Shown here: piece after piece, positions 7,993 through 64,000 of the stretch
How the letters are laid out: the number at the start of each line of letters is the position of its first letter
Position numbering within the stretch: position 1 is the stretch's first letter
Source of the DNA: Minisyncoccota bacterium
GTDB lineage: Bacteria; Patescibacteriota; Minisyncoccia; Phycocordibacterales; UBA9973
DNA: 64,000 nt
Direction: 5' to 3'
Assembly (NCBI GenBank): GCA_017991895.1
Contig: JAGOPR010000001.1
Coordinates: 13,089 to 77,088 of the forward strand
Position numbers and translations under genes: made by a program
Notes under the pieces: generated by a model
The model's input: the letters and a program-made list of their open reading frames with translations, nothing else
Databases searched by the model: none
Told to the model about the DNA's origin: nothing

Positions 7993-8745
7993 CTATTTTA
8001 AAATGTCGGATATTTTAGATAATGGAATCTTGGCCTCGAATGTTCCGGCAGCGTACGCAGATACTTGATATGGCGGAAAAATTAATACTAGATTTTCTCC
8101 ATTTACATAATAGAATTGCAGGGTTTCAGGAGTTGGCGCGGTCCCCATTCGAATCCAATCGATTTGATCATCATCGAGCGTAGACTCAAATCTTTTTGTT
8201 GCCTCCTTTGTTATAAAATTATATGAAAGATCAGAAAGTCTATCTAAATATCTTGCATCATTTTTAAATAAATCTGCGAGCTCTACTTTTTCTCCATTTT
8301 TATTAAAGTTAAGTGTAGCGTAGTAGCTATTTGGGTGCGCTCCGCCGGTATCTTCGTATATATTAAAAACATATGAAATATATTTTGTTGATGTATAAGC
8401 ATTGTAATCAATACCCATCGCGTATTTTCGATTTGATTCAAGAAGTCTCGCCTTCTCTTGTTCAGTTAGCATTTCTGTATATACCATATTCAAAAATGCG
8501 TCCGTCCTATCAACTATAAATTTTTTGATTGATTCCTTCGCGCGAATACCAGCTTCACCAGAAAGTGAGGTACTCGTTGGATAAGTTACATCAATATCAA
8601 CAAAATCTGTAGTTTTTGAAATTGTTTCTTCGGTCGAGTCCAAAATGTCTACTACATTCTCTGGGCTTTTTTTGAAATTAGTCAGCAAAAAATACATTGC
8701 AATCAAAAATATGAAAACCAATCCCACCGCTTTTTTTATATTCAT
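7993..8745 (-). CDS. Membrane-anchored DUF3298/DUF4163 (RsiV-like) domain protein
   Basis: N-terminal TM; TGGAHP motif and composition resembling the RsiV/PdaC C-terminal domain. Confidence 0.4.
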   Translation of the reverse strand: MNIKKAVGLVFIFLIAMYFLLTNFKKSPENVVDILDSTEETISKTTDFVDIDVTYPTSTSLSGEAGIRAKESIKKFIVDRTDAFLNMVYTEMLTEQEKARLLESNRKYAMGIDYNAYTSTKYISYVFNIYEDTGGAHPNSYYATLNFNKNGEKVELADLFKNDARYLDRLSDLSYNFITKEATKRFESTLDDDQIDWIRMGTAPTPETLQFYYVNGENLVLIFPPYQVSAYAAGTFEAKIPLSKISDILK

Positions 8746-40181: not shown

Positions 40182-41858
40182 TTATTCTTGACCGTCAACA
40201 ACTTTAAGTTTAACCTTCCAGAATTTCTGTCGGAGTACATTTACCAAATCGAGAAATTGCTCATTGCCCATAAAGTAAAGAATTATAATTCCAGCAAAAA
40301 TTCCGCCAATTCCAGCAAACAAACCTTGAAGAAAAACTCCGAGTGTCGTAGATATTGTGACGTAGTTTGTAAAAATATTTAATAGAAAATATGAAACCAA
40401 TCCTATCCCAAACGAAGCTGCGATGCTCTCAATAAACGCTCTTCTAAGTCCGTGTGAAGCAGTGAGATAATTCGCTCTTAGGTGTCTCCAGTGGAGCCAC
40501 GCATTTAAAATTACTCCGATTGAATAAGCAAATGGAAGCATGATGACTACCCCTCCCGACATATCATCTATACGAAGGAGAGATTCCATAAAATACCTGA
40601 AAGTCGGTACAGACTTGAAAAGATACACAAAAATAAATGCGAGTGCGATACTAAACAGTGAACAAAATGTATTTATTAGAAGTGGAGTTTTTGAATTGTG
40701 TGCGGAATAAAAACCTCTGACAATTACCAAAATCATATTTTGTGCAAATACCGATATAGAAAAAAGTGCGAGAGCGGCAGCGACAAGCTTAGTGTGTTCC
40801 CATGTAAAAACACCACTACCCAACACGACACGAACGATTTGCGCGCGTAGAACTATAAGGAGGGTTGAAAGTGGAAGCGACCAAAAAATAATCTGTCGAA
40901 TTGATGAAAGAATACAATCTGTCCATTTCGTCATGTCCCCTTTTGAAAAAGTTTCAGAAAGTATAGGAAACGATGCTACAGCAAATGAAACTCCTATAAT
41001 CATGATAGGTACAGTCTGTAAGTTGTACGATAGACTAAAAATTGAAATAGAACCAACGGTTAGTGTTGAACCAATTGCGATTAGGACCAAGACCAAAAGA
41101 CTGTTCATAGACAGCCCAAGCGTACGAGGAAGTGAAAGTTTTGCTACTTCAATAAGAGTTTTAAACTGAAGCCTTGGAAGAAATTTAGGAGTAAAACCAC
41201 CTGCAACGATAGTAGGAATTTGAACAAGTAAATGCAAAATTGCACCTAGCGCCACTCCTATACCCAAACCGTACACACCAAATTTTGGATAAAATAATAC
41301 TATTCCAAGAATGATACCTACATTGTAGAAAATCGGTGATAATGAAAAAATGAAAAACTTTCTAAGAAGCTGGGTTATGGTTCCAAGCATATTGGAAAAT
41401 CCCATAAAAATTGGAGATAGGAGCATTATCCGACTCGTTCCAACAAGCAACTTTAGCTGTTCTTCTGAGAATCCAGGAGCAATCTTTGTTGCGATAAATG
41501 GCATGAAGATAAATACGATAAGTGCTACAGCTACAAGTAGCAACAAAAATCCCGCGAGAACTTCACCTAGGAAAATTTTGGCTTTTTCTTTACCTTCTGC
41601 ATTTATCCGATCAACCAAAAATGGCATGAGCACCGTAATCGATGCGAGCGATGCAACTGAAATATACAAAAAATCTGGAATTCGAAATGCAGCATAATAG
41701 ACATCGAGCGTAGACGATGGTCCAATTAAATTTGCAAAAAGTCTGTCGCGTACAAGTCCTAGGAGTTGCGAGAGCAAAGAAAAGACGCCGAGAAGCAGTG
41801 CCGCCTCATGCATGCTTTCCCAGCGTCTGTTTACATTTTGCAGAAGACGACGAAACAT
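40182..41858 (-). CDS. murJ: Lipid II flippase MurJ/MviN
   Basis: Conserved N-terminus (LGLVRDRLFANLIG...DVYYAAFRIPDFLY) and 14-TM topology. Confidence 0.88.
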   Translation of the reverse strand: MFRRLLQNVNRRWESMHEAALLLGVFSLLSQLLGLVRDRLFANLIGPSSTLDVYYAAFRIPDFLYISVASLASITVLMPFLVDRINAEGKEKAKIFLGEVLAGFLLLLVAVALIVFIFMPFIATKIAPGFSEEQLKLLVGTSRIMLLSPIFMGFSNMLGTITQLLRKFFIFSLSPIFYNVGIILGIVLFYPKFGVYGLGIGVALGAILHLLVQIPTIVAGGFTPKFLPRLQFKTLIEVAKLSLPRTLGLSMNSLLVLVLIAIGSTLTVGSISIFSLSYNLQTVPIMIIGVSFAVASFPILSETFSKGDMTKWTDCILSSIRQIIFWSLPLSTLLIVLRAQIVRVVLGSGVFTWEHTKLVAAALALFSISVFAQNMILVIVRGFYSAHNSKTPLLINTFCSLFSIALAFIFVYLFKSVPTFRYFMESLLRIDDMSGGVVIMLPFAYSIGVILNAWLHWRHLRANYLTASHGLRRAFIESIAASFGIGLVSYFLLNIFTNYVTISTTLGVFLQGLFAGIGGIFAGIIILYFMGNEQFLDLVNVLRQKFWKVKLKVVDGQE

Positions 41859-49106: not shown

Positions 49107-50924
49107 TTACTTCTTATAAATGATTATGACCGGTGGCGGTTTTAATTTTGCCTTTGGTTTATAAACATTTAAAGGTGGCGGTGCCGGATTATCTGAACCT
49201 CCTTCTGGTGGAATAATTTTTAATTTTCCATTCTCCAGAGTAACTTCAGGCAAATCAGATTTCGCATACTTTTCGTCCTCTTCATTTACATATTCCTTTT
49301 TGGTAACCTTACGAGCACCAATTTCTACATTATGTAGAGACTGGTTTACAAATGCTACGGAATCATACTTCCGCTTCAACTCATTAATCACAAAGGCAGT
49401 AGAATCTGCCGTGCGCTTTACCTGTGCGATAGAATCAGTTGTACGTTTAGAGCGTACAGAGTCTGCATAGGCGATTTCGCGAAGCGACTTATTTGTTGAA
49501 TCGGTAACTCGAACGAAAGCAAGTGAGTCAGCATACTTTTCATTTCGTATACTGTCAGCCATTCTTTGTTTAGCAATCTCATTCAAAAGTTGCTCGTTCT
49601 TTACTGCAAGTTGTCTATTAACTTCCGCTAACAATCTTGCATTAGCTTCAGCTTTTTTGGTGATAGAGTCATTCTTGCGTTTTTGCTCATACAACTGAGA
49701 CGCAAGTTGTTTTTCCCTATCTTTCTTTTCATTTACTTTCTGCAATGAATCCAAACGTTTTTGGTTCAACTGTGCAAGAGCTTCCGCTTTTGCATTTTTA
49801 ATTGAATCTAAACGAGCAGTTTTCAATAACTCAAGTAAATTTTTCTGTTTAGCTAATTCGTCCTTTTTCAAGGAGTCTCTAGTCTTAAATTGTTGATTAT
49901 ACCTTCGCGTTCTAGCGAGAGCCGAATCAACCTCGGCTAACAGATTCTGGTCATTTTGTTGCACTTCAGTTTTGTTCAACTCTAATGCTATTTTTTTAGC
50001 ATTTTTTATTGAATCAGCTACCCGCGCACGCTTTTCAGCATTCGCGATTTCCACGGCTAATGCATTCTTTGCGTTCTTTGTGGAGTCTGCAACAAATGCA
50101 ATGCGTGCCTGACGAACTGAATCGGCAGTTTTTACCTTTTGTGTAGAATCACGTACGAATGTGATCCTACGAACAACTGAATCTTTGTACTTAATTGAAT
50201 CGAATTGAGGTGCAAATGCTGGTTCTCCATCTTGAAGAATTTTTACAACAACCTTGCCATCTTTTTTCTTTTCCTCTGTGTACGCTAAAGCAGGAGTTGT
50301 AATTGTCTTTGCTGGGGTAACCAGCTTAGCAAGCTTTCTTCTGACTGATTCATAACCAATCATACTTTTGACTGTTACATCAAACGGGTCATCTTCAATT
50401 GTGGTGTTGTTCCCCTCAATTTTATAGCGACCAAAAAGCTTACTGTTTTTGATCTGATACCAGACCAACCCACCTGATACTTTTCCGTTATAGTACCCAA
50501 CTCGTAAATCGTAGTTGAATACATCCGGATTTTTTGTATTTAGGTAGATGACTTTTATCGAATCACCTGGGTTTGGCCTTGCACTTGGCGAGCACATCGT
50601 TATAAACATGCTATCCAAATGTTTTTGTCGTGTATCACCCATAAATCCATAGAATTTATAGGTGCTGTCGTATACTTCATACGTTTTAGATTCCTTGAGG
50701 TATTTTACGCACGGAAGCGTATCCTCAAAAAACCGTTTACACCATTCGGGCTCGTTGCCCAAATAAAAAGGCATGTTACGAACTTCTATATCCGGATCAT
50801 TAGACCGGCGTAAGTCGTAAGTGTAATAGAAGCCGTAATTTTGCTTCACTTGGCCAAATGAATTTTGGCAGAACACCAGGAACAACACTGGTATTAACGC
50901 GGATAATAAAAGTTGTTTTTTCAT
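49107..50924 (-). CDS. Secreted coiled-coil repeat protein
   Basis: Signal peptide; central tandem ADS(I/V)(K/R)NAK-type repeats; Pro-rich C-terminus. Confidence 0.45.
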   Translation of the reverse strand: MKKQLLLSALIPVLFLVFCQNSFGQVKQNYGFYYTYDLRRSNDPDIEVRNMPFYLGNEPEWCKRFFEDTLPCVKYLKESKTYEVYDSTYKFYGFMGDTRQKHLDSMFITMCSPSARPNPGDSIKVIYLNTKNPDVFNYDLRVGYYNGKVSGGLVWYQIKNSKLFGRYKIEGNNTTIEDDPFDVTVKSMIGYESVRRKLAKLVTPAKTITTPALAYTEEKKKDGKVVVKILQDGEPAFAPQFDSIKYKDSVVRRITFVRDSTQKVKTADSVRQARIAFVADSTKNAKNALAVEIANAEKRARVADSIKNAKKIALELNKTEVQQNDQNLLAEVDSALARTRRYNQQFKTRDSLKKDELAKQKNLLELLKTARLDSIKNAKAEALAQLNQKRLDSLQKVNEKKDREKQLASQLYEQKRKNDSITKKAEANARLLAEVNRQLAVKNEQLLNEIAKQRMADSIRNEKYADSLAFVRVTDSTNKSLREIAYADSVRSKRTTDSIAQVKRTADSTAFVINELKRKYDSVAFVNQSLHNVEIGARKVTKKEYVNEEDEKYAKSDLPEVTLENGKLKIIPPEGGSDNPAPPPLNVYKPKAKLKPPPVIIIYKK

Positions 50925-56059: not shown

Positions 56060-56081
56060 AAGTAAACCAACGCGGAGTAAA

Positions 56082-56118
56082 AAAACCAGCAAGGTCCGAC
56101 CTTGCTGGTTTTTTTACT
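56082..56118. terminator. Bidirectional terminator
   Basis: aaaaaaccagcaaggtc cg accttgctggttttttt. Confidence 0.8.
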
Positions 56119-57634
56119 CTATTATTCTAATCTCATTTGCTATTTTTTCCGTTTCAGAAAAACCTGATTCATTTTTAGCATTTTTATTTATATAAACTTT
56201 GTACAGAACGTAAGAGGCCCCAAGCAAACCAGTAACACCAACAGCCAAAGATACATACAAAGGAATCTCGCTTTTCTCCACGGGTTTACTATTTTCCGCC
56301 GAAGCGACACTTGCCTGCATTTCTATTGGCATAATCGGAGCTGATACTTCTTTTACAGTAATCTTTGTCGAAGGCGAGGATACAGTGGGTGTACTAAAAG
56401 CGACTACTGATTTTTCGATTTTGGGTAACGTAGGATACGTAGAAACAATACTTCCTGATGGCAACACAAGCTGTAACCTAGCAAAGTCGCCGTCAGTGAA
56501 TCCTGTTAAGCTCTTTGATAAAAAAATTGACTTGCCCGAGATAATAAATGTTCCATACGGGATAATAAATTTTTTTGTTCCGCTCGAATTTATTATCCCC
56601 CAATCTGAGATATCTGCTTCACTGTCTGAAGGATTTTTTAATTCAATTGTACCGATATCACTCACTGATGAAATAAAAACATGTGGCTCCACGATTTCAA
56701 TAACTTGTCGTATTTTAATATCTGGTTCACGCAAATATGGGTTAGTTTTATATGTAAACATTGCCAAATATGTACCAGAAAATTCATACTCATGCTTAAA
56801 CGGCTCAAAATAATCCAATTTTTTTACTGTGCCATCTCCAAAAGAAAAATAGAATTCCCCACGCTGTCTAACTTCTCCGGCAAGTCCCGTAACTTTTACT
56901 GATACATCAAAAGGAATACCTGCTACTCCGGTTATAGGCATAGATAGCTCTGCCTTCATTTTTGGAGGCTCATATGCCTTTGGTGTAGTCACGGTCGTAG
57001 TAGACCCTGTCCCACCTCCTTCAGTCGTCGTACCTCCGCCGCCTCCACCGCCACTACCCGTATCCCCTCCACCTCCTCCAGATGATCCACCGCTGTTGCT
57101 AACTCCCGGGGTAGGAACTGCCCCTACCCAAGATGAGCCGACAAGCTGAAGTGAGTTGCCGTCGCCAGCACCTCCTACAGTATTTGTATATGAAACAGTG
57201 TCTACAATATTGCCTGCATCATCAATAATTTTTACATTACCACTCGTATTTCCTAGACTCATAGATGTATCTATAACTGTACCTGAATATCCTGAGTGAT
57301 CTGTCAGAAAAACGTCAGCATTGGAAGCTATAACTGCATACCCATTTACTGGTATTACCATTGTGCCTCGCGTTGCGGTATCTGCAAGTAAATGATTGCT
57401 TCCATCATTAAAACGCCATGTATCCCCGCTTCCGCCGGAAATTGTTACAGCTGTCGTTCCAGTATTCTGAATTTCTATCCACTCGTGATCAGAATCAGAT
57501 CCCGGCGCATCATAAAAAATCTCGCTGATGATGATACCGCCAGAAGCAAGCGTTGTTCCGCGTACGGAAAAAAATAATATGAGAATGAGTAGTAAACTGT
57601 AAACTATTCCGCGATTATTTATTCCACACCACAT
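56114..57634 (-). CDS. Secreted lamin-tail-domain (LTD) protein with Gly-rich linker and C-terminal TM anchor
   Basis: LTD signature IIISEIFYDAPGSDSDHEWIEIQNTG; poly-G/S/T linker; start trimmed to the Met that precedes the signal peptide (alternative start at 57766 would overlap the upstream ATPase). Confidence 0.6.
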   Translation of the reverse strand: MWCGINNRGIVYSLLLILILFFSVRGTTLASGGIIISEIFYDAPGSDSDHEWIEIQNTGTTAVTISGGSGDTWRFNDGSNHLLADTATRGTMVIPVNGYAVIASNADVFLTDHSGYSGTVIDTSMSLGNTSGNVKIIDDAGNIVDTVSYTNTVGGAGDGNSLQLVGSSWVGAVPTPGVSNSGGSSGGGGGDTGSGGGGGGGTTTEGGGTGSTTTVTTPKAYEPPKMKAELSMPITGVAGIPFDVSVKVTGLAGEVRQRGEFYFSFGDGTVKKLDYFEPFKHEYEFSGTYLAMFTYKTNPYLREPDIKIRQVIEIVEPHVFISSVSDIGTIELKNPSDSEADISDWGIINSSGTKKFIIPYGTFIISGKSIFLSKSLTGFTDGDFARLQLVLPSGSIVSTYPTLPKIEKSVVAFSTPTVSSPSTKITVKEVSAPIMPIEMQASVASAENSKPVEKSEIPLYVSLAVGVTGLLGASYVLYKVYINKNAKNESGFSETEKIANEIRIIE

Positions 57635-57644
57635 AGACAGTATA

Positions 57645-59990
57645 TTATTCTGACAATACGTTTCGTAGCACCTCTTCAGGAATTTCTCGTATTTTCTTTT
57701 CGCCAACTGGTTTCTCTTGTTCTGGTTTTTTTTCTTCTTGTATTGGAGGAACTGGTGTGGGTTCAATTTTTACCGGTTCAGGAATTTTTTTCTCTTCTAC
57801 TTTTTGTACATCTCCGACTTTGGGCGCACTATTTGTAGCTTTTGCAATTGCACTAGCGAGCGCTGACATACGTTCTTCTGAAGCCTGCTTTGATGCGAAC
57901 ACTTTTTGAGTAGGAACTACAGATGATTCTGCTTCTGGTTTTTTAAGTGAAGAAAGAGAAATTGTTTGCTTTTCTGGTTCTGGATTTCCGTTTTCTGGTT
58001 TCGTAACGTTAGAATTCTTTTCGTCTTTAATATTTGCACTTTGCATGTTTTTTGAGAGAGCATCTCCAAGAGCTGATTTCAAAATACTCTGAAGACCTTC
58101 GTGATCAGGAGTCGCACGCTCCTTTGCCGGTCGAATATTTTTTGGTCTTGGTTCAGAAACTGGCGTAGATGATGGAGCAGGTACTGGCGAAACAGGAGCT
58201 TGCTGAGTATGAGTCGCCATTGGTTTTGCCACTGACGCAACAGGTCGAACTTGTTGAGGTGGGACACTAGGGATCGAGACCGTAGGACTAGGTCGTGGAG
58301 TGGTAACCGGAGGCGGAACAGTTACGGGCCTCGACATTTGCGGTCGAGACACGAACGCTGGTGGAACTGGTTTCTTCAAAACAGCTGGACTTCGAGTCGG
58401 AGAAAGTTTTGCTGCGTCAGAATCTCCTTCAGGTAAATATTCGATACCGAGACCAGCAAGAGCTGAGTACGATTGTGGCTCGAGAGCCCGAGCACGTGAA
58501 GTACCTTTGACCGGTTTCATTTCCCCGCTCTTAATTTTCGCAATACAGTCCTTACAATACACAGGTCGGCCTTCTTCCGGCTCAAATGGAACAGTAGTTT
58601 CTTTTCCACAAGAAGAACATACGGCTTTAAATTTGCCTGTCTCTTCAAGACCAACAAGCATTCCACTCCAATCATTGATTTCTTTTTCAACAATTTCTTT
58701 CGGACGAGCGTATAGCTTTCGAGACATTTCTATAATCTCTTGAGCAACAGTACTTTCAACGGGGATTTTAAATGGTGTGAGTGTTTTTGCAGAAAAGGGT
58801 CGGCTTGTTACCCCATCTACCATAAGCTTTAGATAGATTGTGTAGTTTGGAAGGTTCACCATGTCTTGCGGTGTAAATTCCGGCTCAAATTCTTGCTCAA
58901 GATATTCGGCATCTGCGGCACCGATGCGGAAAATGATTATCGTTCCAACGTTACCGAAAACAGCATCACGAACTGCCTCAGAATCTTTTGTGACAAGCTG
59001 AGCAATGTATTGGTGAGCGAGAGTGAGGTTTAGGCGGTATTTACGAGCTTCAGAGAGAATACTCGCAAATGCGTCTGTAACGAAGTTTTGGAATTCGTCC
59101 ACATACAAATAGAAATCTTTACGGTCATCTTCAGGAATACGCACGCGCTCCATGGCGGCGAGCTGGAGCTTGGTAATAATCATACCTCCCAAGAGTGCTG
59201 AGTTGTCTTCACCGATACGTCCCTTTGAAACGTTCACGAGAAATATTTTTCCAGTGTTCATCAAACTAAAAAGATCGAGTGTGGATTTTGATTGTCCGAC
59301 AACATTACGCACGATAGAAGTTGATAGGAATTGTCCAACTTTGTTTTGAATCGGAGCGATAGCTTCGTTACGATATTGATCACGCCAGTTTTCATATTCA
59401 TGAACCCAGAAGGCTTTAATCACTGGATCTTTCAAATTATTGATGACTACCTGACGGTAGTCTTTGTCCACAAGAAGACGCGGAATACCAAGGAGTGTAG
59501 AGCCAGGCGTATCAACAAGCGCCAAGATCGCGTTGTTCAAAATATATTCCATACGAGCAGACCACGCGTTTGCCCAAATCTTTGTAAAAATTCCCATCAG
59601 ACCGGACGCCACAAGATGCTTGTAGCGTGGATCGTCGAGCTGAAGCACATTGAAACCGACGTGGTAATCCGCGTCAGCTGGGTTGAAATATATAACATCT
59701 TTTGCACGGTGAGCAGGGATTGTCGCAAGAATTGATTCGACAAGTTCTCCGTGAGGGTCGACAACGCAAACACCTTCGCCGTTCCAGACGTTTTGAACAA
59801 TCATATTTGCTAGAAGCGCAGATTTTCCGGAGCCGGATTTACCCAACAGGTACATGTGTTGCCGGCGATCTTTTCTTTTGATGCCGAAAACTTGTTCGTT
59901 GGCTCGGAAATTCGTCTTTGCCAAATACGTAAGATTTTTATTAAAGGCTATCCCGTCAGGGAGAAAGTCCATATGCCGTATATTATACAA
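57645..59990 (-). CDS. FtsK/HerA-superfamily ATPase (TraD/VirD4/AAA_10-like) with C-terminal zinc ribbon and Pro-rich disordered tail (paralog A)
   Basis: Walker A GKSGSGKS, VVDPHGE, Walker B YLYVDEFQNF; CSSCGKE...YCKDC; long P/S/T/V-rich tail. Confidence 0.6.
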   Translation of the reverse strand: MYNIRHMDFLPDGIAFNKNLTYLAKTNFRANEQVFGIKRKDRRQHMYLLGKSGSGKSALLANMIVQNVWNGEGVCVVDPHGELVESILATIPAHRAKDVIYFNPADADYHVGFNVLQLDDPRYKHLVASGLMGIFTKIWANAWSARMEYILNNAILALVDTPGSTLLGIPRLLVDKDYRQVVINNLKDPVIKAFWVHEYENWRDQYRNEAIAPIQNKVGQFLSTSIVRNVVGQSKSTLDLFSLMNTGKIFLVNVSKGRIGEDNSALLGGMIITKLQLAAMERVRIPEDDRKDFYLYVDEFQNFVTDAFASILSEARKYRLNLTLAHQYIAQLVTKDSEAVRDAVFGNVGTIIIFRIGAADAEYLEQEFEPEFTPQDMVNLPNYTIYLKLMVDGVTSRPFSAKTLTPFKIPVESTVAQEIIEMSRKLYARPKEIVEKEINDWSGMLVGLEETGKFKAVCSSCGKETTVPFEPEEGRPVYCKDCIAKIKSGEMKPVKGTSRARALEPQSYSALAGLGIEYLPEGDSDAAKLSPTRSPAVLKKPVPPAFVSRPQMSRPVTVPPPVTTPRPSPTVSIPSVPPQQVRPVASVAKPMATHTQQAPVSPVPAPSSTPVSEPRPKNIRPAKERATPDHEGLQSILKSALGDALSKNMQSANIKDEKNSNVTKPENGNPEPEKQTISLSSLKKPEAESSVVPTQKVFASKQASEERMSALASAIAKATNSAPKVGDVQKVEEKKIPEPVKIEPTPVPPIQEEKKPEQEKPVGEKKIREIPEEVLRNVLSE

Positions 59991-60026
59991 GCTTTAAAGC
60001 TGTAAAGCTATATAGCTGTTAAGCTT

Positions 60027-61727
60027 TTATAGTACCTCTTTTTGGTAACAGGATTCGCAGTAGACCACCTCAGGGCGTCCTTTTTCATATGGCGTTCTGA
60101 TATCTTTTTTGCAGTTATCACAAGTACGATCAAAGAGTTTAGTTGGCAAAAGCATTTTGTAGCGTTCTTTATGGCGCTCGGCTCCTGCTACTCGCGGAAT
60201 CGGCAAACCTGCTTGGCGATAGAAAGAAAGTTCAGCTGGCACAATACGATACGCTTTTCCAGAAACCTCACACTTTAAAATCATTTTTAGTATATCGTCG
60301 CCGACATCTTTGATATCGTCCGGAATCGTATAGTCAGAAAATTCGTAGTGAGTATCAGAAACATAGTCGCTCCATTTATATCCTTGTGCGAGCGCTTCTT
60401 CTTTTGAAAGCGGAAAAATATCGGGAGCAGTTGTTTCATTGTATCCATAGGAAGAAAATTCTGTTGGAAAAAATTCTCCATATTTATACACTCGCCCCAT
60501 CTTGTCCACATATGGCATATCCTGCATGTGTTTTTTAATTCTAGGTAAAAGCTCGTTATATTCTTCTTTCGTATATTTTTTATTAAGAATCGTATATTCT
60601 GCACCACGAACACAAACGCATCCAAAACAATTACTAACACTTCCTACCATTGTCGAATACTCGACAGTATTGATAGTCACTTTCTTAAGTGGGTCATTCG
60701 AAATGCAGAAAAGCAAAAATTTTGAATCATAGACTCCCCCACTGTGAGCACATTCATACGCGAGCTCGGCAGCGCCAAGGCAACTACAATCATACAAGTC
60801 ACGTGCCCACCCAGTAATAAAGAGATTTTTAGAATTTTCAATCTTTGTGCATTCCCAGACATTATGAGAATTCTTTGCTTCCGAAACTGCGTTACCCGTA
60901 GTGTCTACGGATTTAAAAATAGTATTTTCGCGGTGTGGAGAATTATTCCAAATAGGAACAATCTGCTCCTTCCACCATGAAAGTCCACGGTGAGATGATA
61001 TTGGATGTTCGGACAAAAATTTCTGATATTCCTCTTTTGTATACTGCTCGTTAAAAATACAGTATTGCTTGTTGCGCAGTCCGGCACAACCAATAACATT
61101 GCTACAATTGCGACAGTCATATGAGAGGACTGTATTTAAGGAATCGTGGCATTCATAGGAAAAGTGTGTGAAATAATCTCTCTCGCAGTGCACATTATTT
61201 GAAGAATGATCAGAGTTAAATATCCAATAATTATCGAAGCAGTTTTTGCACTGAACTCCGTATGTACAATATGCACAGTCTTCGTTGTACATCCCTCCTA
61301 CATTCATATAACAATTTTTACTATCATTCTCTTGATTTATCCATTCACTATTTATTGCATTTGAATTCAGTATTGATATTTGTGGAACAGCAAGGAAAAG
61401 CTCGAGCCATTGCTCGAAAAATGGTCGTAAAAAATCATACTCTTTACCGTATGAACACGGGTCCCATTTGTCGCTCCACCAGCATTTTGAACAATACATG
61501 GGGAAAGTCTTATCTGGAGATACACGAGAAACAACACTCGTGCCACACAAATCACAATCACGCTTGTAGAAATTACGTTCGTTACGAAAGGCAAGCCTGC
61601 GCTGAAAACGGCAGTCCGCACAAAACGTTGGAGGTGGAACATTTACCTTCTGGTAAAAGTCAAAGTCCTCTGGCTCAATCGTAAAGTCATTCTTACAGTT
61701 CTGGCAATTTCGGGTTTCGTTTTGCAT
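60027..61727 (-). CDS. Large cysteine-rich multi-zinc-ribbon protein (566 aa), paralog 1
   Basis: N- and C-terminal CxxC..FY..P..CxxCR..Y..CxxC double zinc ribbons; two internal Cys modules each ending in YCIxNxQYTKEEY. Confidence 0.55.
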   Translation of the reverse strand: MQNETRNCQNCKNDFTIEPEDFDFYQKVNVPPPTFCADCRFQRRLAFRNERNFYKRDCDLCGTSVVSRVSPDKTFPMYCSKCWWSDKWDPCSYGKEYDFLRPFFEQWLELFLAVPQISILNSNAINSEWINQENDSKNCYMNVGGMYNEDCAYCTYGVQCKNCFDNYWIFNSDHSSNNVHCERDYFTHFSYECHDSLNTVLSYDCRNCSNVIGCAGLRNKQYCIFNEQYTKEEYQKFLSEHPISSHRGLSWWKEQIVPIWNNSPHRENTIFKSVDTTGNAVSEAKNSHNVWECTKIENSKNLFITGWARDLYDCSCLGAAELAYECAHSGGVYDSKFLLFCISNDPLKKVTINTVEYSTMVGSVSNCFGCVCVRGAEYTILNKKYTKEEYNELLPRIKKHMQDMPYVDKMGRVYKYGEFFPTEFSSYGYNETTAPDIFPLSKEEALAQGYKWSDYVSDTHYEFSDYTIPDDIKDVGDDILKMILKCEVSGKAYRIVPAELSFYRQAGLPIPRVAGAERHKERYKMLLPTKLFDRTCDNCKKDIRTPYEKGRPEVVYCESCYQKEVL

Positions 61728-61764
61728 TTGGATTTTCTATTAACTACTATCTACTAATTACTAA

Positions 61765-63420
61765 CTAGTTAATATTCTGCTTATAACATGCCTCGCAGGC
61801 AATCTTCGTATATCCCCATTCCTTTGGGTAGTACGCACCCACCTCATTATTGCAGTAAATGCAATTATAAGATTCCGCTTTCCACGGAGCCATCGTGCGC
61901 ATACGGTTTTTTGTACGGACATCAAAATGGACACGAGGAAGCGCAATTCCCTTTCGTGAAAGGAATTTGAATTCTTCAGGTGCGATGTTGAATCGCCAGC
62001 CAGTTTCTGGACAAATAAGTGCCTGCTTAGAGATGGTTTCGTCTACTTCCGTAATACTATTTGGCAATTCGCTCGTTGGAATACCGTCTACTTGGCTCTC
62101 AACGTTGTCATTCCAGTACCCGCCTCTAGCAAGTACAAATTCCTTTGTGATTTCTGGCATATAAATCGAAGCCGTAGTGAGATTATAATCACAAAGCCCC
62201 ATGTTATACGGCAAAAACTGCCCATATTCACCATGTGCTTTCATGTCAGCGATTATCTTTTCACGAAGTGCCTCATATTCTTCTTTTGTATATTGCCTAT
62301 TTAAAATACAATATTTTTTCTTTCGAAGCCCAACACATCCAAAACAATATTCAACTTCAAGACACTCATCGAGATATTCTGAATAGCGCCCTTCGCTCCA
62401 TGAGGAATAATGAAGTCCGTACCCTCCAGTGCAACAACTGTCATTTCCGCACACCTCGACTTTCCATGAACCAAGAAGATCAATGCAGTCCTTTGCTTCA
62501 CGTCCACGAAGACAATTCACACAATTTTCTGATTCTTCCCATCCGAAAACGTTCTGGCAATTGTTGCAATCTGCAAGGTATGTTCCTTTCGATGCATAGG
62601 TGTTTAGTGTGAAATTCTCTCGATGCACTGTCTCTTCTCGCAAGATTTCAACATAGCGTGCCTTTAGCTTTTCAAGTCCTGCGTATGAACTCATGTCATA
62701 TTCTTTAAGCTTTTCAAAATATTCTTCTTTTGTGTACTGCACATTTTCGATACAATATTGCGCACCGCGGAGATTCCAACACATCGTACAATTGCTGCAG
62801 TTTCGGCAGTCGTACAAAAATCGTGAGTTCATACAGTCACGGCAATTTCTTGAAAAATAAAGTTCGAAGGAGTGAAAGGAATAGGTACACTCGTAGCAAT
62901 TGTCTAGGGTAAATGCATGGGAGATATCCATCGAATCTTTCGCATCAAAAGAACGATATCCATACAAAAGATTTTCGGAACGAGCAACTGAGCGCGTGAG
63001 GTAACAATTTTTAGAATCCCAGACATCGTCACACCAATCGCAAAGTAAGTTGTTTGTTCCTTGTTGGTGCGGACGTGGTACTTTTTCTTGCAATTCTTTT
63101 AGCTGGTCAAAAAACGGTCGTGACTCGTCATAGTCTTGCCCAAAATCCATGGCATCCCATGCATCGCTCCACCACTCTTTGGAATGGTAAATCGGATAGC
63201 GCACGCTCGCCGGAAGCATCGTTATAAGGCTTTCTCCTGAAAGTGACGATGTAGCTTTACGAAATTTACCGAATGGCCAAAATGCAAACTGCTGTGCCAT
63301 ACGGCAAGAAAAACAATTGAGTGGTATTTCAATTGCTACTTTTTCGTACAAAAGAAACTCAGGGGGTGTGATAGTAAAATCTTTCTTACAGCTCTGGCAT
63401 TGTTTCGTTTCTGTTTGCAT
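61765..63420 (-). CDS. Large cysteine-rich multi-zinc-ribbon protein (551 aa), paralog 2
   Basis: Same architecture and conserved YTKEEY modules as 60027..61727. Confidence 0.55.
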   Translation of the reverse strand: MQTETKQCQSCKKDFTITPPEFLLYEKVAIEIPLNCFSCRMAQQFAFWPFGKFRKATSSLSGESLITMLPASVRYPIYHSKEWWSDAWDAMDFGQDYDESRPFFDQLKELQEKVPRPHQQGTNNLLCDWCDDVWDSKNCYLTRSVARSENLLYGYRSFDAKDSMDISHAFTLDNCYECTYSFHSFELYFSRNCRDCMNSRFLYDCRNCSNCTMCWNLRGAQYCIENVQYTKEEYFEKLKEYDMSSYAGLEKLKARYVEILREETVHRENFTLNTYASKGTYLADCNNCQNVFGWEESENCVNCLRGREAKDCIDLLGSWKVEVCGNDSCCTGGYGLHYSSWSEGRYSEYLDECLEVEYCFGCVGLRKKKYCILNRQYTKEEYEALREKIIADMKAHGEYGQFLPYNMGLCDYNLTTASIYMPEITKEFVLARGGYWNDNVESQVDGIPTSELPNSITEVDETISKQALICPETGWRFNIAPEEFKFLSRKGIALPRVHFDVRTKNRMRTMAPWKAESYNCIYCNNEVGAYYPKEWGYTKIACEACYKQNIN

Positions 63421-63456
63421 AGTATTCTCTATTTACCATTTACTATTTAGTATTTA

Positions 63457-64000
63457 CTAAATAAGCGGTTCGGCGGTTTCTTCCACTTTCGCTGATGCAG
63501 GTGCTCCCCCACCTGACTCGTTTTTACCAGTACGCATAATTGCTGCTTTTTCTTGAGCGCTACGGATAATAGTAGACTCTTCCTCAGCAATCAAGCGCTT
63601 TGCTTCGTCTGCAGAAATTGCAAATTTTCTTCGAGATGCCTCAATTATTTTTTCCCTGTTTGATGGATATGGTGGAGTCATGACCTTCAAAGTCTCAGCA
63701 GAAAATGGGTCGTACGACTCGCCATCAATTGTCATTTTTATATAAAATTCTCCCACACCAAGGTTGATCATGTCTTTCACGTCAAAAATAGGTGCAAACT
63801 CTGGCTTTAGCTTAACTGCGTCATCGCCACCTACACGAAATGAAATCATAGACCCGACGTTTCCGAGCACGGCGGCTTCAACTTTTTCTGGAATCTGCCC
63901 CACGTACTGGTGCGCCATTGTGAGGTTGATAGCGTATTTACGAGCCTCGGAAAGAAGGTTTTCAAAAGTATCGGTCACGACGTTTTGGAACTCGTCTACG
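63457..64000 (-). CDS. FtsK/HerA-superfamily ATPase paralog B (C-terminal part; gene continues beyond the window end)
   Basis: Frame stays open to the window edge and the translation aligns with paralog A (YVDEFQNFVTD..., SEARKY.LNLT.AHQY); no zinc ribbon or Pro-rich tail. Confidence 0.6.
   Translation of the reverse strand, partial: VDEFQNVVTDTFENLLSEARKYAINLTMAHQYVGQIPEKVEAAVLGNVGSMISFRVGGDDAVKLKPEFAPIFDVKDMINLGVGEFYIKMTIDGESYDPFSAETLKVMTPPYPSNREKIIEASRRKFAISADEAKRLIAEEESTIIRSAQEKAAIMRTGKNESGGGAPASAKVEETAEPLI

What the first reader, a model, noticed from the sequence alone, without database searches (positions are those of the whole stretch)
60027..63420. Paralogous ~560-aa Cys-rich proteins with terminal double zinc ribbons and internal 'YCIxNxQYTKEEY' modules
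Both proteins start with C-x2-C-(17-19)-C-x2-C followed by a second C-x2-C...C-x2-C. Paralog 1 reads MQNETRNCQNCKNDFTIEPEDFDFYQKVNVPPPTFCADCRFQRR...RDCDLCG...YCSKCW. Both end with the same pattern: ...CEVSGKAYRIVPAELSFYRQAGLPIPRV...RTCDNCKKDIRTPYEKGRPEVVYCESCY. The shape F-x-I/T-x-E-x-x-FY-x-K-x-x-P-x-x-C-x-x-CR is typical of the small bacterial 'probable zinc-ribbon' modules; here it is used twice per protein as bookends. In between, each protein has two modules of the form DCRNCSN..C....YCIxNxQYTKEEY (four in total across the pair, with near-identical YTKEEY cores), plus further CxxC/HC clusters. There is no signal peptide or TM helix. About 40 Cys per protein implies a heavily metal-loaded or disulfide-rich cytoplasmic scaffold. 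I cannot place the middle modules in any family I know.
Basis: seen in the sequence. Interest (0 to 1): 0.75.

Follow-up and report, generated by a model that had tools for sequence, protein, structure and literature searches.

The report
Zinc-capped cysteine-ladder solenoid protein pair
Two neighbouring genes encode members of a very large, unnamed protein family of ultra-small Patescibacteria: two narrow beta-solenoids with a cysteine/serine core, capped at each end by a pair of zinc-ribbon modules. The genes often sit in tandem arrays beside orphan secretion-type ATPases, and nobody knows what the proteins do.

Summary
Two minus-strand ORFs, p1 (60027-61727, 566 aa, 33 Cys) and p2 (61765-63420, 551 aa, 34 Cys), are full-length paralogs (34% identity, E 1e-92).

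- **Architecture:** [zf_Tbcl-like + CxxC-x17-CxxC ribbon] – solenoid – solenoid – [the same ribbon pair]. Profile comparison confirms both internal duplications.
- **Intact ribbons:** only three of four Cys4 ribbons are intact in p1 and two in p2.
- **Solenoid core:** Cys falls on every third residue of a 12-residue coil and exchanges freely with Ser. This is a Tenebrio-antifreeze-like tight core, not a set of fixed ligands.
- **Family size:** at least 5,300 clusters at 50% identity, one fixed ~550-600 aa architecture, essentially all Patescibacteria, none in viral contigs.
- **Paralogs:** tandem arrays of up to 12 ancient copies.
- **Context:** the commonest neighbour is a soluble VirD4/HerA-like ATPase, one type of which carries the same ribbon. 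Two of these flank the pair here. dnaK/dnaJ/grpE also recur nearby.

My best guess for function is paralog-specific adaptor or scaffold subunits for these orphan ATPases. This is inferred, not shown.

The parts
60027..61727 (-). p1: 566-aa family member (MBP6884270.1, KBC17_00415, 'hypothetical protein', Candidatus Pacebacteria MAG)
   Evidence: ORF. 100% match in public data. AF2 pLDDT 89.8, pTM 0.89.
61765..63420 (-). p2: 551-aa paralog (MBP6884271.1, KBC17_00420). It belongs to a distinct subfamily that is often first in an array.
   Evidence: ORF. 34% identity to p1. Subfamily assignment and position in arrays. AF2 pLDDT 83.9, pTM 0.83.
61587..61718 (-). p1 ribbon 1 (aa 4-47): zf_Tbcl-like, C8, C11, C36, C39, spacer 24
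   Evidence: PF13451 E 0.0043, 17.4 bits, profile positions 3-44 of 48. These Cys are 95-97% conserved in 585 relatives.
61479..61568 (-). p1 ribbon 2 (aa 54-83): CxxC-x17-CxxC, C58, C61, C79, C82
   Evidence: PF23477 E 0.011. Spacing. Homologous to ribbon 4, hhalign E 9e-8. C61, C79 and C82 are present or absent together across the family (phi 0.99-1.0); C58 tracks them less tightly (phi 0.66-0.67).
61368..61478 (-). p1 conserved linker (aa 84-120): WSDxWDP..YG.EYDF.RPFFEQ
   Evidence: Most conserved segment, mean top-residue frequency 0.61. W83, D86, W88, D98, F103, Q106 and P115 are at least 93% identical.
61008..61367 (-). p1 solenoid module 1 plus YTKEEY helix (aa 121-240); YTKEEY at 61026-61043
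   Evidence: All Cys columns 127-223 are congruent modulo 3, with a 12-residue period. Homologous to module 2.
60519..60920 (-). p1 solenoid module 2 plus YTKEEY helix (aa 270-403); YTKEEY at 60558-60575
   Evidence: hhalign module 1 vs module 2: probability 99.8%, E 9e-29. Long beta strands 274-360 in the AF2 model.
60288..60518 (-). p1 conserved acidic region (aa 404-480): PYVD..YGEFFP..GYNET
   Evidence: G417, P421, Y429, N430 and W452 are at least 93% identical. Net charge -10. pLDDT 89-97.
60162..60281 (-). p1 ribbon 3 (aa 483-522): degenerate zf_Tbcl-like, only C486 kept
   Evidence: Homologous to ribbon 1, hhalign E 2.3e-13. Most relatives have CxCC or CCCC here.
60033..60137 (-). p1 ribbon 4 (aa 531-565): CxxC-x17-CxxC, C536, C539, C557, C560
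   Evidence: PF23477 E 1.4e-5, 25.1 bits. TIGR04272 E 0.006. These Cys are 98-99% conserved.
63280..63411 (-). p2 ribbon 1 (aa 4-47): C8, C11, C36, C39
   Evidence: PF13451 E 0.0016.
63172..63261 (-). p2 relic of ribbon 2 (aa 54-83): all four Cys replaced (S58, S61, H79, E82)
   Evidence: Alignment columns show 0% Cys in p2-type orthologs. The AF2 model keeps the same strands.
62701..63060 (-). p2 solenoid module 1 plus YTKEEY helix (aa 121-240); contains CRNCSNCTMC, a full coil of four Cys; YTKEEY at 62719-62736
62236..62610 (-). p2 solenoid module 2 plus YTKEEY helix (aa 271-395); YTKEEY at 62275-62292
61900..62022 (-). p2 ribbon 3 (aa 467-507): degenerate, with C470 and H498
   Evidence: Column statistics: C470 is 100% Cys and H498 is 100% His in p2-type orthologs.
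61774..61878 (-). p2 ribbon 4 (aa 515-549): C520, C523, C542, C545, spacer 18
63457..64000 (-). ATPase-A: C-terminal part of a soluble VirD4/HerA-like ATPase, cut by the window end; 36 nt upstream of p2
   Evidence: The frame stays open to the window end and starts at the Walker B-like VDEFQN. 50% identity to ATPase-B. Same C-terminus as the L001 ortholog. HerA hits.
57645..59990 (-). ATPase-B: 781-aa soluble VirD4/TrwB/HerA-like ATPase with its own CxxC-x17-CxxC ribbon (aa 454-486) and a Pro/Ser/Lys-rich tail; 36 nt downstream of p1
   Evidence: PF10412 4.5e-13, PF23477 4.5e-16, PF12696, DUF87. TIGR04272 1.7e-16. Ribbon spacing 17.
56075..56119 (.). Strong hairpin terminator that probably ends the ATPase-A / p2 / p1 / ATPase-B / LTD-protein transcription unit
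   Evidence: 20-bp stem followed by a T run. No comparable terminator lies between the five genes.

Best explanation
What it is (well supported): p1 and p2 are two anciently diverged paralogs of a large, undescribed, Patescibacteria-restricted family of soluble cytoplasmic proteins.

Each protein is built as A-B-B'-A':
- A and A' are a pair of small zinc modules, a zf_Tbcl-like treble clef followed by a CxxC-x17-CxxC ribbon.
- B and B' are narrow beta-solenoids of 12-residue coils. Every third residue points into the core and is usually Cys or Ser, as in the Tenebrio antifreeze beta-helix. Each solenoid ends in a conserved 'LRxKxYCIxNxxYTKEEY' coil-plus-helix cap.
- The outermost ribbons are nearly always intact. 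The inner ribbons are lost in particular subfamilies: p1 lacks ribbon 3, and p2 lacks ribbons 2 and 3.

How it most likely works (inferred): the proteins are non-enzymatic, zinc-stabilised scaffold or adaptor subunits. They work with the soluble, orphan VirD4/HerA-like hexameric ATPases encoded beside them.
- The terminal ribbon modules would provide a common docking or nucleic-acid-binding handle. One ATPase type carries the same ribbon type.
- The many stably retained paralogs would give different solenoid surfaces, either for different partners or as distinct subunits of one assembly.
- Here the transcription unit would be ATPase-A, p2, p1, ATPase-B, then a surface LTD protein.
For: Structure:
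- AF2 models are confident (pLDDT 89.8, pTM 0.89 for p1; 83.9, 0.83 for p2) with the same domain order.
- Both internal duplications are confirmed by profile comparison.
- Cys-Cys distances in residues 100-400 are almost only multiples of 3, with peaks at 3, 9 and 12.
- Core positions are Cys/Ser-dominated.

No enzyme signature:
- The positions that are at least 93% identical are mostly ribbon Cys and repeat-equivalent structural residues, such as N226/N382 and D165/D313.
- No catalytic family matches.

Family:
- 5,352 representative clusters at E<=1e-3, and the top 150 are all full length.
- No domain fusions and no viral copies.
- 1-12 copies per ~20-kb locus, with many 4-nt overlaps between genes.
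- 170 of 176 paralogs are closer to a gene in another genome than to any gene in their own array: 57.7% vs 43.7% identity. The paralogs are therefore old and specialised.

ATPase link:
- The ATPase is the commonest neighbour, present in 30 of 82 loci and directly adjacent on the same strand in 20.
- 29 ATPase genes abut a family gene, against 15.9 +/- 2.8 expected by within-locus permutation; 0 of 5,000 permutations reach 29.
- The ATPases make up 5.0% of neighbouring genes. A survey of CPR genomes reports about two per genome, mostly far from virB4 and possibly exapted.
- In the window, the only two ATPase copies flank the pair with 36-nt spacers and no internal terminator.
- ATPase-B carries the same PF23477 ribbon.
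Against: - No interaction, expression or metal data exist.
- 52 of 82 loci show no ATPase within 10 kb. The ATPases also occur across CPR lineages that may lack this family, so the link is not obligatory.
- Conservation is rather even along the protein (0.43-0.61). The idea of variable recognition surfaces on constant handles is therefore only weakly supported.
- Solenoid 1 is modelled with only moderate confidence (pLDDT 58-76).
- dnaK, dnaJ and grpE are also recurrent neighbours, so part of the signal may simply be a conserved syntenic block of one order.
Confidence: 0.4

Rival explanations
1. Stress or proteostasis factor. The proteins would be zinc-thiolate, possibly redox-sensitive, co-chaperones, holdases or obligate clients of the DnaK system, co-expressed with grpE, dnaK and dnaJ.
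For: - Recurrent gene orders are S9-GrpE-family-family-(PaaX-like regulator)-DnaK-ATPase and ATPase-DnaJ-family.
- DnaK is in 13 of 82 loci, DnaJ in 10, GrpE in 5.
- In L004 the p2-type gene overlaps the end of grpE by 20 nt.
- From general knowledge: Zn-Cys4 centres are used in DnaJ and Hsp33.
Against: - The window copy is not next to chaperone genes.
- No CIRCE element is present in the window or in any of the 85 loci.
- There is no DnaJ-type CxxCxGxG motif and no similarity to a known chaperone.
- The linkage is seen in a minority of loci and may be lineage-specific synteny.
Confidence: 0.15
2. Secreted or injected effectors. The paralog arrays would be substrates recognised by the adjacent VirD4-like coupling ATPases and delivered to the host cell of these episymbionts.
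For: - Adjacency to T4CP-like ATPases.
- No signal peptide, and a basic C-terminal region (net +7 in p1, +5 in p2), as in many type IV substrates (the comparison is from general knowledge).
- Large arrays in small genomes.
Against: - The ATPases lack the N-terminal membrane anchor of true coupling proteins (sequences).
- Most CPR T4CP homologs are not near virB4, and no VirB4 or channel genes were seen among recurrent neighbours.
- The paralogs are ancient and well conserved across genera, not fast-diversifying.
- The genes lie in core chromosome regions among ribosomal, tRNA-synthetase and Sec genes.
- Tightly folded zinc domains at both ends are awkward substrates.
Confidence: 0.1
3. Metal-cluster protein. 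The stacked CxxC coils would bind Fe-S clusters or a chain of metal ions for electron transfer or metal storage.
For: - About 6% Cys.
- The family consensus CxxCxxCxxC fills one whole coil (C205, C208, C211, C214, each 80-89% Cys) and recurs in other coils.
- Solenoid 1 is the least confidently modelled part, as might be expected if a cofactor is missing from the model.
Against: - Most solenoid Cys positions are only 12-66% Cys and are replaced by Ser, Asn or Val in orthologs. Fixed ligands would be invariant.
- p1 itself has Val at position 211.
- There is no ferredoxin-type CxxCxxCxxxCP motif and no match to an Fe-S family.
Confidence: 0.08
4. An enzyme whose active site is formed by the uniquely conserved non-repeat segments (WWSDxWD...FFEQ and YGEFFP...GYNET) on a solenoid scaffold.
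For: These two segments are the best-conserved non-Cys parts and contain invariant Asp, Gln, Asn and Glu residues. From general knowledge, solenoid scaffolds do carry enzymes, such as left-handed beta-helix acyltransferases and gamma-carbonic anhydrase.
Against: - No known catalytic motif or family hit.
- Up to 12 retained paralogs per locus is unusual for an enzyme in a ~1-Mb genome.
- Foldseek hits to left-handed beta-helix enzymes have TM-scores of about 0.1.
Confidence: 0.07

Closest known systems
Tenebrio molitor antifreeze protein beta-helix (PDB 1ezg)
   Different: - No sequence homology, no TxT ice-binding ladder and no signal peptide.
- This family is cytoplasmic and about seven times larger.
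- It has two solenoids plus zinc modules.
- The Cys pattern is i, i+3 rather than the i, i+6 disulfide pairs of the antifreeze protein (the antifreeze consensus is from memory).
Small bacterial treble-clef and ribbon modules: Pfam PF13451 (zf_Tbcl), PF23477 (zf_Tbcl_2) and NCBIfam TIGR04272 (CxxC-x17-CxxC)
   Same: The four end modules are the only parts that hit any library, with full-length alignment to the profiles and the defining Cys spacing. The neighbouring ATPase-B has a canonical PF23477 copy.
   Different: - Scores for p1 and p2 are below the gathering thresholds.
- Two of the eight modules keep a single Cys and one keeps none.
- These Pfam families describe about 40-residue modules of unknown function, not the 550-aa architecture.
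VirD4/TrwB type IV coupling proteins with their substrates or adaptors
   Same: The adjacent genes encode ATPases of this superfamily: PF10412, PF02534, PF12696. The family has no signal peptide and a basic C-terminal region.
   Different: - The ATPases are soluble, with no N-terminal transmembrane segment.
- No VirB4 or channel genes lie nearby.
- CPR T4CP homologs are mostly orphan.
- No relaxase or known effector domain is present.
Bactofilins and curli-type solenoid subunits that occur as several paralogs
   Different: - Both solenoid ends are capped by helices and zinc modules, and pTM 0.89 indicates a compact monomer.
- No bactofilin (DUF583) or curlin repeat hit was found.
- Polymerisation was not tested.

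Membership tests
Pfam PF13451 zf_Tbcl (probable treble-clef zinc domain) | Score at or above the gathering threshold (24 bits) with CxxC...CxxCR over the whole 48-position profile | tested here: inconclusive
   Ribbon 1 scored alone gives 17.4 bits (p1) and 18.8 bits (p2), E 0.0043 and 0.0016, covering profile positions 3-44 of 48. 5 of 75 relatives match at E<=1, best 1.3e-6. It is the best hit but sub-threshold.
Pfam PF23477 zf_Tbcl_2 / NCBIfam TIGR04272 (CxxC-x17-CxxC) | Two CxxC motifs 17 residues apart | tested here: met
   p1 ribbons 2 and 4 have spacer 17; p2 ribbon 4 has spacer 18.
Pfam PF23477 zf_Tbcl_2 / NCBIfam TIGR04272 (CxxC-x17-CxxC) | Score at or above the curated cut-off (27 bits for Pfam, 36 for NCBIfam) | tested here: not met
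   p1 ribbon 4 scores 25.1 bits alone, 17.3 bits in the whole protein, and 16.2 bits against TIGR04272. p2 gives no hit. 20 of 75 relatives match at E<=1.
Tenebrio-type 12-residue antifreeze beta-helix | 12-residue coils with every third residue in a Cys/Ser/Ala core | tested here: met
Tenebrio-type 12-residue antifreeze beta-helix | TxT ice-binding ladder, secretion signal, i/i+6 disulfides | tested here: not met
   There is no TCT repeat in either sequence. The N-terminus is a zinc ribbon with no hydrophobic leader. Disulfides cannot be tested here.
Left-handed beta-helix (hexapeptide-repeat) transferases and gamma-carbonic anhydrases | [LIV]-G-x4 hexapeptide repeats with 18 residues per turn, and a Pfam Hexapep match | tested here: not met
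   No Hexapep hit. The period is 12, not 18. Foldseek E>=7e-4 with TM-score about 0.1.
Ferredoxin-type Fe-S proteins | Invariant CxxCxxCxxxC(P) ligand sets | tested here: not met
   The spacing is 3-3-3, occupancy is variable with Cys/Ser exchange, and p1 has Val at position 211. No Fer4 family hit.
Type IV secretion system (substrate or component) | A membrane-anchored coupling protein together with VirB4 and channel genes in the neighbourhood | tested here: not met
   The neighbouring ATPases have no N-terminal hydrophobic segment (sequences). The window genes and recurrent neighbour clusters annotated here contain no VirB4 or channel proteins. The literature reports that most CPR T4CP homologs lie far from virB4.
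Known anti-phage defence systems (PADLOC) | A match of the proteins to a defence-system model | tested here: not met
   No hits for p1 or p2. Only weak mad8/HerA hits for the ATPases.

The most novel reading that the evidence does not exclude
The family and the interleaved soluble VirD4/HerA-like ATPase paralogs would form a previously unrecognised, Patescibacteria-specific cytoplasmic machine. In it, several distinct zinc-capped solenoid subunits act as substrate-specific adaptors or as a hetero-oligomeric track for an ATP-driven translocase. The solenoids themselves would represent a new structural principle: whole coils of four inward-facing Cys (CxxCxxCxxC) chelating metal ions on the solenoid axis.
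Probability: 0.15. Interest if true: 0.85.

Novelty: categorically new. Interest (0 to 1): 0.62.

Why it matters
Patescibacteria (CPR) make up a large share of bacterial diversity. They have genomes of about 1 Mb, and most of their lineage-specific genes have no known function.

- **Scale:** this family is one of the bigger unknowns. It has thousands of sequence clusters and a single rigid architecture. Up to 12 copies, about 21 kb, sit in one locus, which I estimate at roughly 2% of such a genome. The paralogs have been kept apart for a long time.
- **Link to orphan ATPases:** the family gives a first candidate partner for the orphan VirD4-like ATPases that a recent survey found in thousands of CPR genomes without a secretion channel nearby.
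- **Structure:** a cytoplasmic Cys/Ser-core 12-residue solenoid bracketed by zinc ribbons is an undescribed domain combination. It would merit a Pfam entry and a structure determination.

A defined, testable hypothesis of ATPase plus adaptor paralogs makes part of CPR 'dark matter' experimentally approachable.

Tried and rejected
- **Known family over the whole length:** Pfam, NCBIfam, PADLOC and PHROGs on p1 and p2 and Pfam on 75 relatives hit only the ribbon modules. One further weak hit was PHROG phrog_15341, of unknown function (E 1e-3).
- **Solved structures by sequence profile:** only LIM-like noise on the last ribbon, E>0.2.
- **Mobile or viral origin:** no relatives in IMG/VR. The neighbours are core housekeeping genes.
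- **Heat-shock regulation through CIRCE:** no match in the window with up to 3 mismatches, nor in any of the 85 loci.
- **Informative domain fusions:** none. One apparent 115-aa N-terminal extension looks like a miscalled start.
- **Recent arms-race expansion:** rejected, because the paralogs' best hits lie in other genomes.
- **Defining metal sites from correlated presence of Cys:** this works for ribbons 2 and 3. In the solenoids it is swamped by subfamily structure.
- **Literature:** searches for the family, its motifs, the Pfam accessions, or Cys-ladder solenoids in CPR found nothing relevant.
- **A third paralog in the window:** none. The 558-aa ORF at 40182-41858 is MurJ.

Full report
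**1. Observation**

- They align end to end at 34% identity, E 1e-92.
- tblastn finds no third copy in the 64 kb.
- p1 has 33 Cys (5.8%) and p2 has 34 (6.2%). 'YTKEEY' occurs twice in each (coordinates verified).
- Neither protein has a hydrophobic segment (maximum 19-residue Kyte-Doolittle mean 1.1), and both are acidic, pI 5.6 and 5.2.
- In public data they are MBP6884270.1 and MBP6884271.1, 'hypothetical proteins' of a Candidatus Pacebacteria MAG.

- Ribbon 1 is C-x2-C-x24-C-x2-C. The 17/18-residue spacer belongs to ribbons 2 and 4.
- p2 has lost all four Cys of ribbon 2.
- Both proteins keep only one Cys of ribbon 3.

**2. Anatomy**

I aligned p1, p2 and 112 relatives (alignment A1) and compared sub-profiles with hhalign.
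- The N-terminal ribbon pair (aa 7-82) is homologous to the C-terminal pair (aa 485-560): probability 98.8%, E 1.4e-16.
- Ribbon 1 matches ribbon 3 (E 2e-13), and ribbon 2 matches ribbon 4 (E 9e-8).
- Module 1 (aa 131-241) is homologous to module 2 (aa 279-397): probability 99.8%, E 9e-29.

The plan is therefore A-B-B'-A'. Scored alone, ribbon 1 best matches PF13451 (E 0.004 and 0.0016), and ribbons 2 and 4 of p1 best match PF23477 (E 0.011 and 1.4e-5). All fall below the gathering scores.

AlphaFold2 gives confident, compact models with the same order of elements: p1 pLDDT 89.8, pTM 0.89; p2 83.9, 0.83. The solenoid parts are the least confident, with pLDDT 55-76.

**3. The middle modules are Cys/Ser-core 12-residue solenoids**

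- Over 114 sequences, Cys-Cys distances within residues 100-400 are almost exclusively multiples of three, with peaks at 3, 9 and 12.
- In a 585-sequence alignment, every Cys column of module 1 (p1 positions 127 to 223) is congruent modulo 3.
- Those in-register columns are dominated by Cys and Ser, for example S65/C30, S45/C35, C66/S18, C59/S27.
- Every third residue pointing into a core of Cys, Ser or Ala is the geometry of the 12-residue coil of the Tenebrio antifreeze beta-helix. That description of the antifreeze protein is from my own knowledge.
- Foldseek against the PDB and BFVD gives only left-handed beta-helix enzymes at TM-scores of about 0.1.

The free Cys/Ser exchange argues that most solenoid Cys are packing residues rather than ligands. 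The exceptions are the last coils:
- C205, C208, C211 and C214 are each 80-89% Cys, a full turn of four inward positions.
- In module 2, C370 (96-97%), C379 (85-86%), C367 (57-58%) and C361 (64-65%) are the best-conserved Cys.

These are candidate extra metal sites. That is an inference I could not test, because no coordinates are returned.

**4. Not a known family**

- Pfam, NCBIfam, PADLOC and PHROGs give nothing on the core. The one exception is a weak PHROG of unknown function.
- Scanning 75 relatives individually against Pfam yields only PF23477 (20 members) and PF13451 (5 members).
- A profile search of PDB sequences hits only LIM-like noise.
- Literature searches found no description.

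**5. Family size, distribution and paralogy**

- Word-seeded searches returned 7,854 (p1) and 5,281 (p2) significant relatives, each from a pool capped at 8,000 scored candidates, so these are minimum counts. All are unnamed and from Patescibacteria MAGs.
- An exhaustive profile search of 1.84 billion cluster representatives found 5,352 at E<=1e-3 and 2,248 at E<=1e-30. The best 150 are all 527-602 aa and full length.
- There are no fusions and no copies in IMG/VR viral contigs.
- In GTDB species representatives, the 79 best loci are Paceibacteria-type lineages: Nomura-, Staskawicz-, Jorgensen-, Wolfe-, Kaiser-, Giovannoni-, Lipton-, Gribaldobacteria and others. Two contigs are probably mis-binned.
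- My ORF calling plus hmmsearch found 251 family genes in 86 loci (79 from the GTDB scan, six fetched earlier and the window), 1-12 per ~20 kb locus, typically with gaps of -25 to +60 nt and many 4-nt overlaps.
- For example, L001 carries eight or nine paralogs in a row, and L036 carries twelve.
- The paralogs are old. For 170 of 176 genes, the best match lies in another genome rather than in their own array (median 57.7% vs 43.7% identity).
- The p2 type is a separate subfamily that often leads an array. The order p2-type then p1-type recurs.
- In a census of the zinc sites, ribbons 1 and 4 are almost always intact. Ribbon 2 is intact in about half of the copies, and ribbon 3 mostly has three or four Cys. 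C61, C79 and C82 of ribbon 2 are gained and lost together (phi 0.99-1.0), with C58 less tightly linked (phi 0.66-0.67), as expected for one metal site.

**6. Context**

The window is ordinary Patescibacteria chromosome: LepA, MurJ, LeuRS, YchF, UDG, Sua5.

The pair lies in a tight co-oriented block:
- ATPase-A (cut by the window end);
- 36 nt, then p2;
- 37 nt, then p1;
- 36 nt, then ATPase-B;
- then a lamin-tail-domain surface protein.

There is no convincing internal terminator, and a strong hairpin at 56075-56119 follows the block.

Both ATPases belong to the VirD4/TrwB/HerA group (PF10412, PF02534, PF12696, DUF87) and lack an N-terminal membrane anchor. ATPase-B carries a canonical PF23477 ribbon (E 4.5e-16) followed by a ~290-aa Pro/Ser/Lys-rich tail.

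Across 82 non-redundant loci:
- This ATPase is by far the commonest neighbour, present in 30 loci and directly adjacent on the same strand in 20.
- 29 ATPase genes abut a family gene, against 15.9 +/- 2.8 under within-locus permutation; 0 of 5,000 permutations reach 29.
- ATPases and family genes are often interleaved, for example in L007 and L067.
- The ATPases make up 5.0% of the neighbouring genes.

A 2025 survey counted 5,713 VirD4-like homologs in 2,918 CPR genomes. Only 148 were near virB4, and the authors raised the possibility that they have been exapted.

Other recurrent neighbours are DnaK (13 loci), a PaaX-like regulator (11), DnaJ (10) and GrpE (5). Typical orders are S9-GrpE-family-family-regulator-DnaK-ATPase and ATPase-DnaJ-family. 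SecDF, CutA1, CysRS and ribosomal genes also recur. No CIRCE element is present.

**7. Interpretation**

Shown:
- the architecture, both duplications and the 12-residue Cys/Ser-core periodicity;
- the absence of any described relative;
- the size and restriction of the family;
- the ancient tandem paralogy;
- the statistical association with soluble VirD4/HerA-like ATPases.

Inferred:
- The proteins are non-enzymatic. The conserved positions are mostly structural or repeat-equivalent.
- The ribbons bind zinc.
- The proteins serve as paralog-specific adaptor or scaffold subunits for the adjacent ATPases, which share a ribbon type.

I put about 0.9 on the structural description and about 0.3-0.35 on the functional model, which gives the combined 0.4.

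Rivals, all without direct evidence:
- a DnaK-linked stress or redox role (0.15);
- exported effectors (0.10);
- a metal-cluster protein (0.08);
- an enzyme (0.07).

Weak points:
- 52 of 82 loci show no ATPase within 10 kb.
- Conservation is fairly even along the chain (0.43-0.61).

**8. Novelty and score**

The end modules are known small zinc domains, and the solenoid fold has a structural analogue. However, the core has no sequence family, and no solved structure comes closer than a generic solenoid. No characterised homolog exists, and the gene-neighbourhood 'system' matches nothing described.

I file it as categorically new at the level of protein family and system, with the caveat that its function is unknown. 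Interest is moderate to high (0.62): it is a large, clean, testable piece of CPR dark matter and a candidate partner for the orphan coupling-protein-like ATPases.

Noticed in passing
window 57645-59990 (-): ATPase-B is a soluble VirD4/HerA-like ATPase. It has a canonical CxxC-x17-CxxC ribbon at aa 454-486, followed by a ~290-aa Pro/Ser/Lys/Val-rich, probably disordered tail. It also matches phrog_5156 (unknown function) at E 6e-58.
   Followed up: partly
window 56114-57766 (-), hairpin at 56075-56119: This is a lamin-tail-domain (LTD) protein with a Gly-rich linker and a C-terminal hydrophobic anchor. The listed TTG start overlaps ATPase-B. The likely true start is the Met at 57634 (MWCG...), 10 nt after the ATPase-B stop. 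A 20-bp bidirectional terminator hairpin follows the gene.
   Followed up: partly
window 59991-60026, 61728-61764, 63421-63456: The three intergenic spacers in the block are all 36-37 nt and AT-rich. The two spacers flanking p2 contain repeated TAGTAAAT and AATAG-like words. There is no obvious Shine-Dalgarno sequence. This could be a shared translational or regulatory signal.
   Followed up: no
L001 40-561; L007 7114-7644; L067 2162-2674: A ~173-aa protein with an N-terminal hydrophobic segment sits between ATPase paralogs in several genomes. It ends in an R-x4-H-like motif (HRLRNELVH), reminiscent of HEPN domains. It has no Pfam hit.
   Followed up: partly
L007 5635-7107 and the gene running off the start of L001: A divergent ~470-490-aa paralog clusters with the ATPases by BLAST but gives no P-loop or T4CP Pfam hit here. 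Precomputed data label it DUF8128. It may be an inactive ATPase-like partner.
   Followed up: no
L036 1-21776: Twelve family genes fill essentially the whole 21.8-kb locus of Patescibacteria bacterium AH-259-L05 (pairwise identity 37-58%). The array may extend further on the 154-kb contig.
   Followed up: partly
window 49107-50924 (-): A 605-aa ORF with no Pfam match at E<=0.001. It is another unannotated large protein in the window.
   Followed up: no
window 62713-63042 (p2 aa 127-236): Solenoid module 1 of p2 weakly matches PHROG phrog_15341 (unknown function, E 1e-3). Phage proteins with a similar Cys-rich coil may exist, although IMG/VR held no family member.
   Followed up: partly
L076 (Burkholderiales MAG), L078 (Bacteroidales MAG), P0160 (Bacteroidia MAG): A few family genes are filed under non-Patescibacteria MAGs. 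The L076 neighbourhood shows the typical Paceibacteria gene order, so these look like mis-binned contigs rather than horizontal transfer.
   Followed up: no
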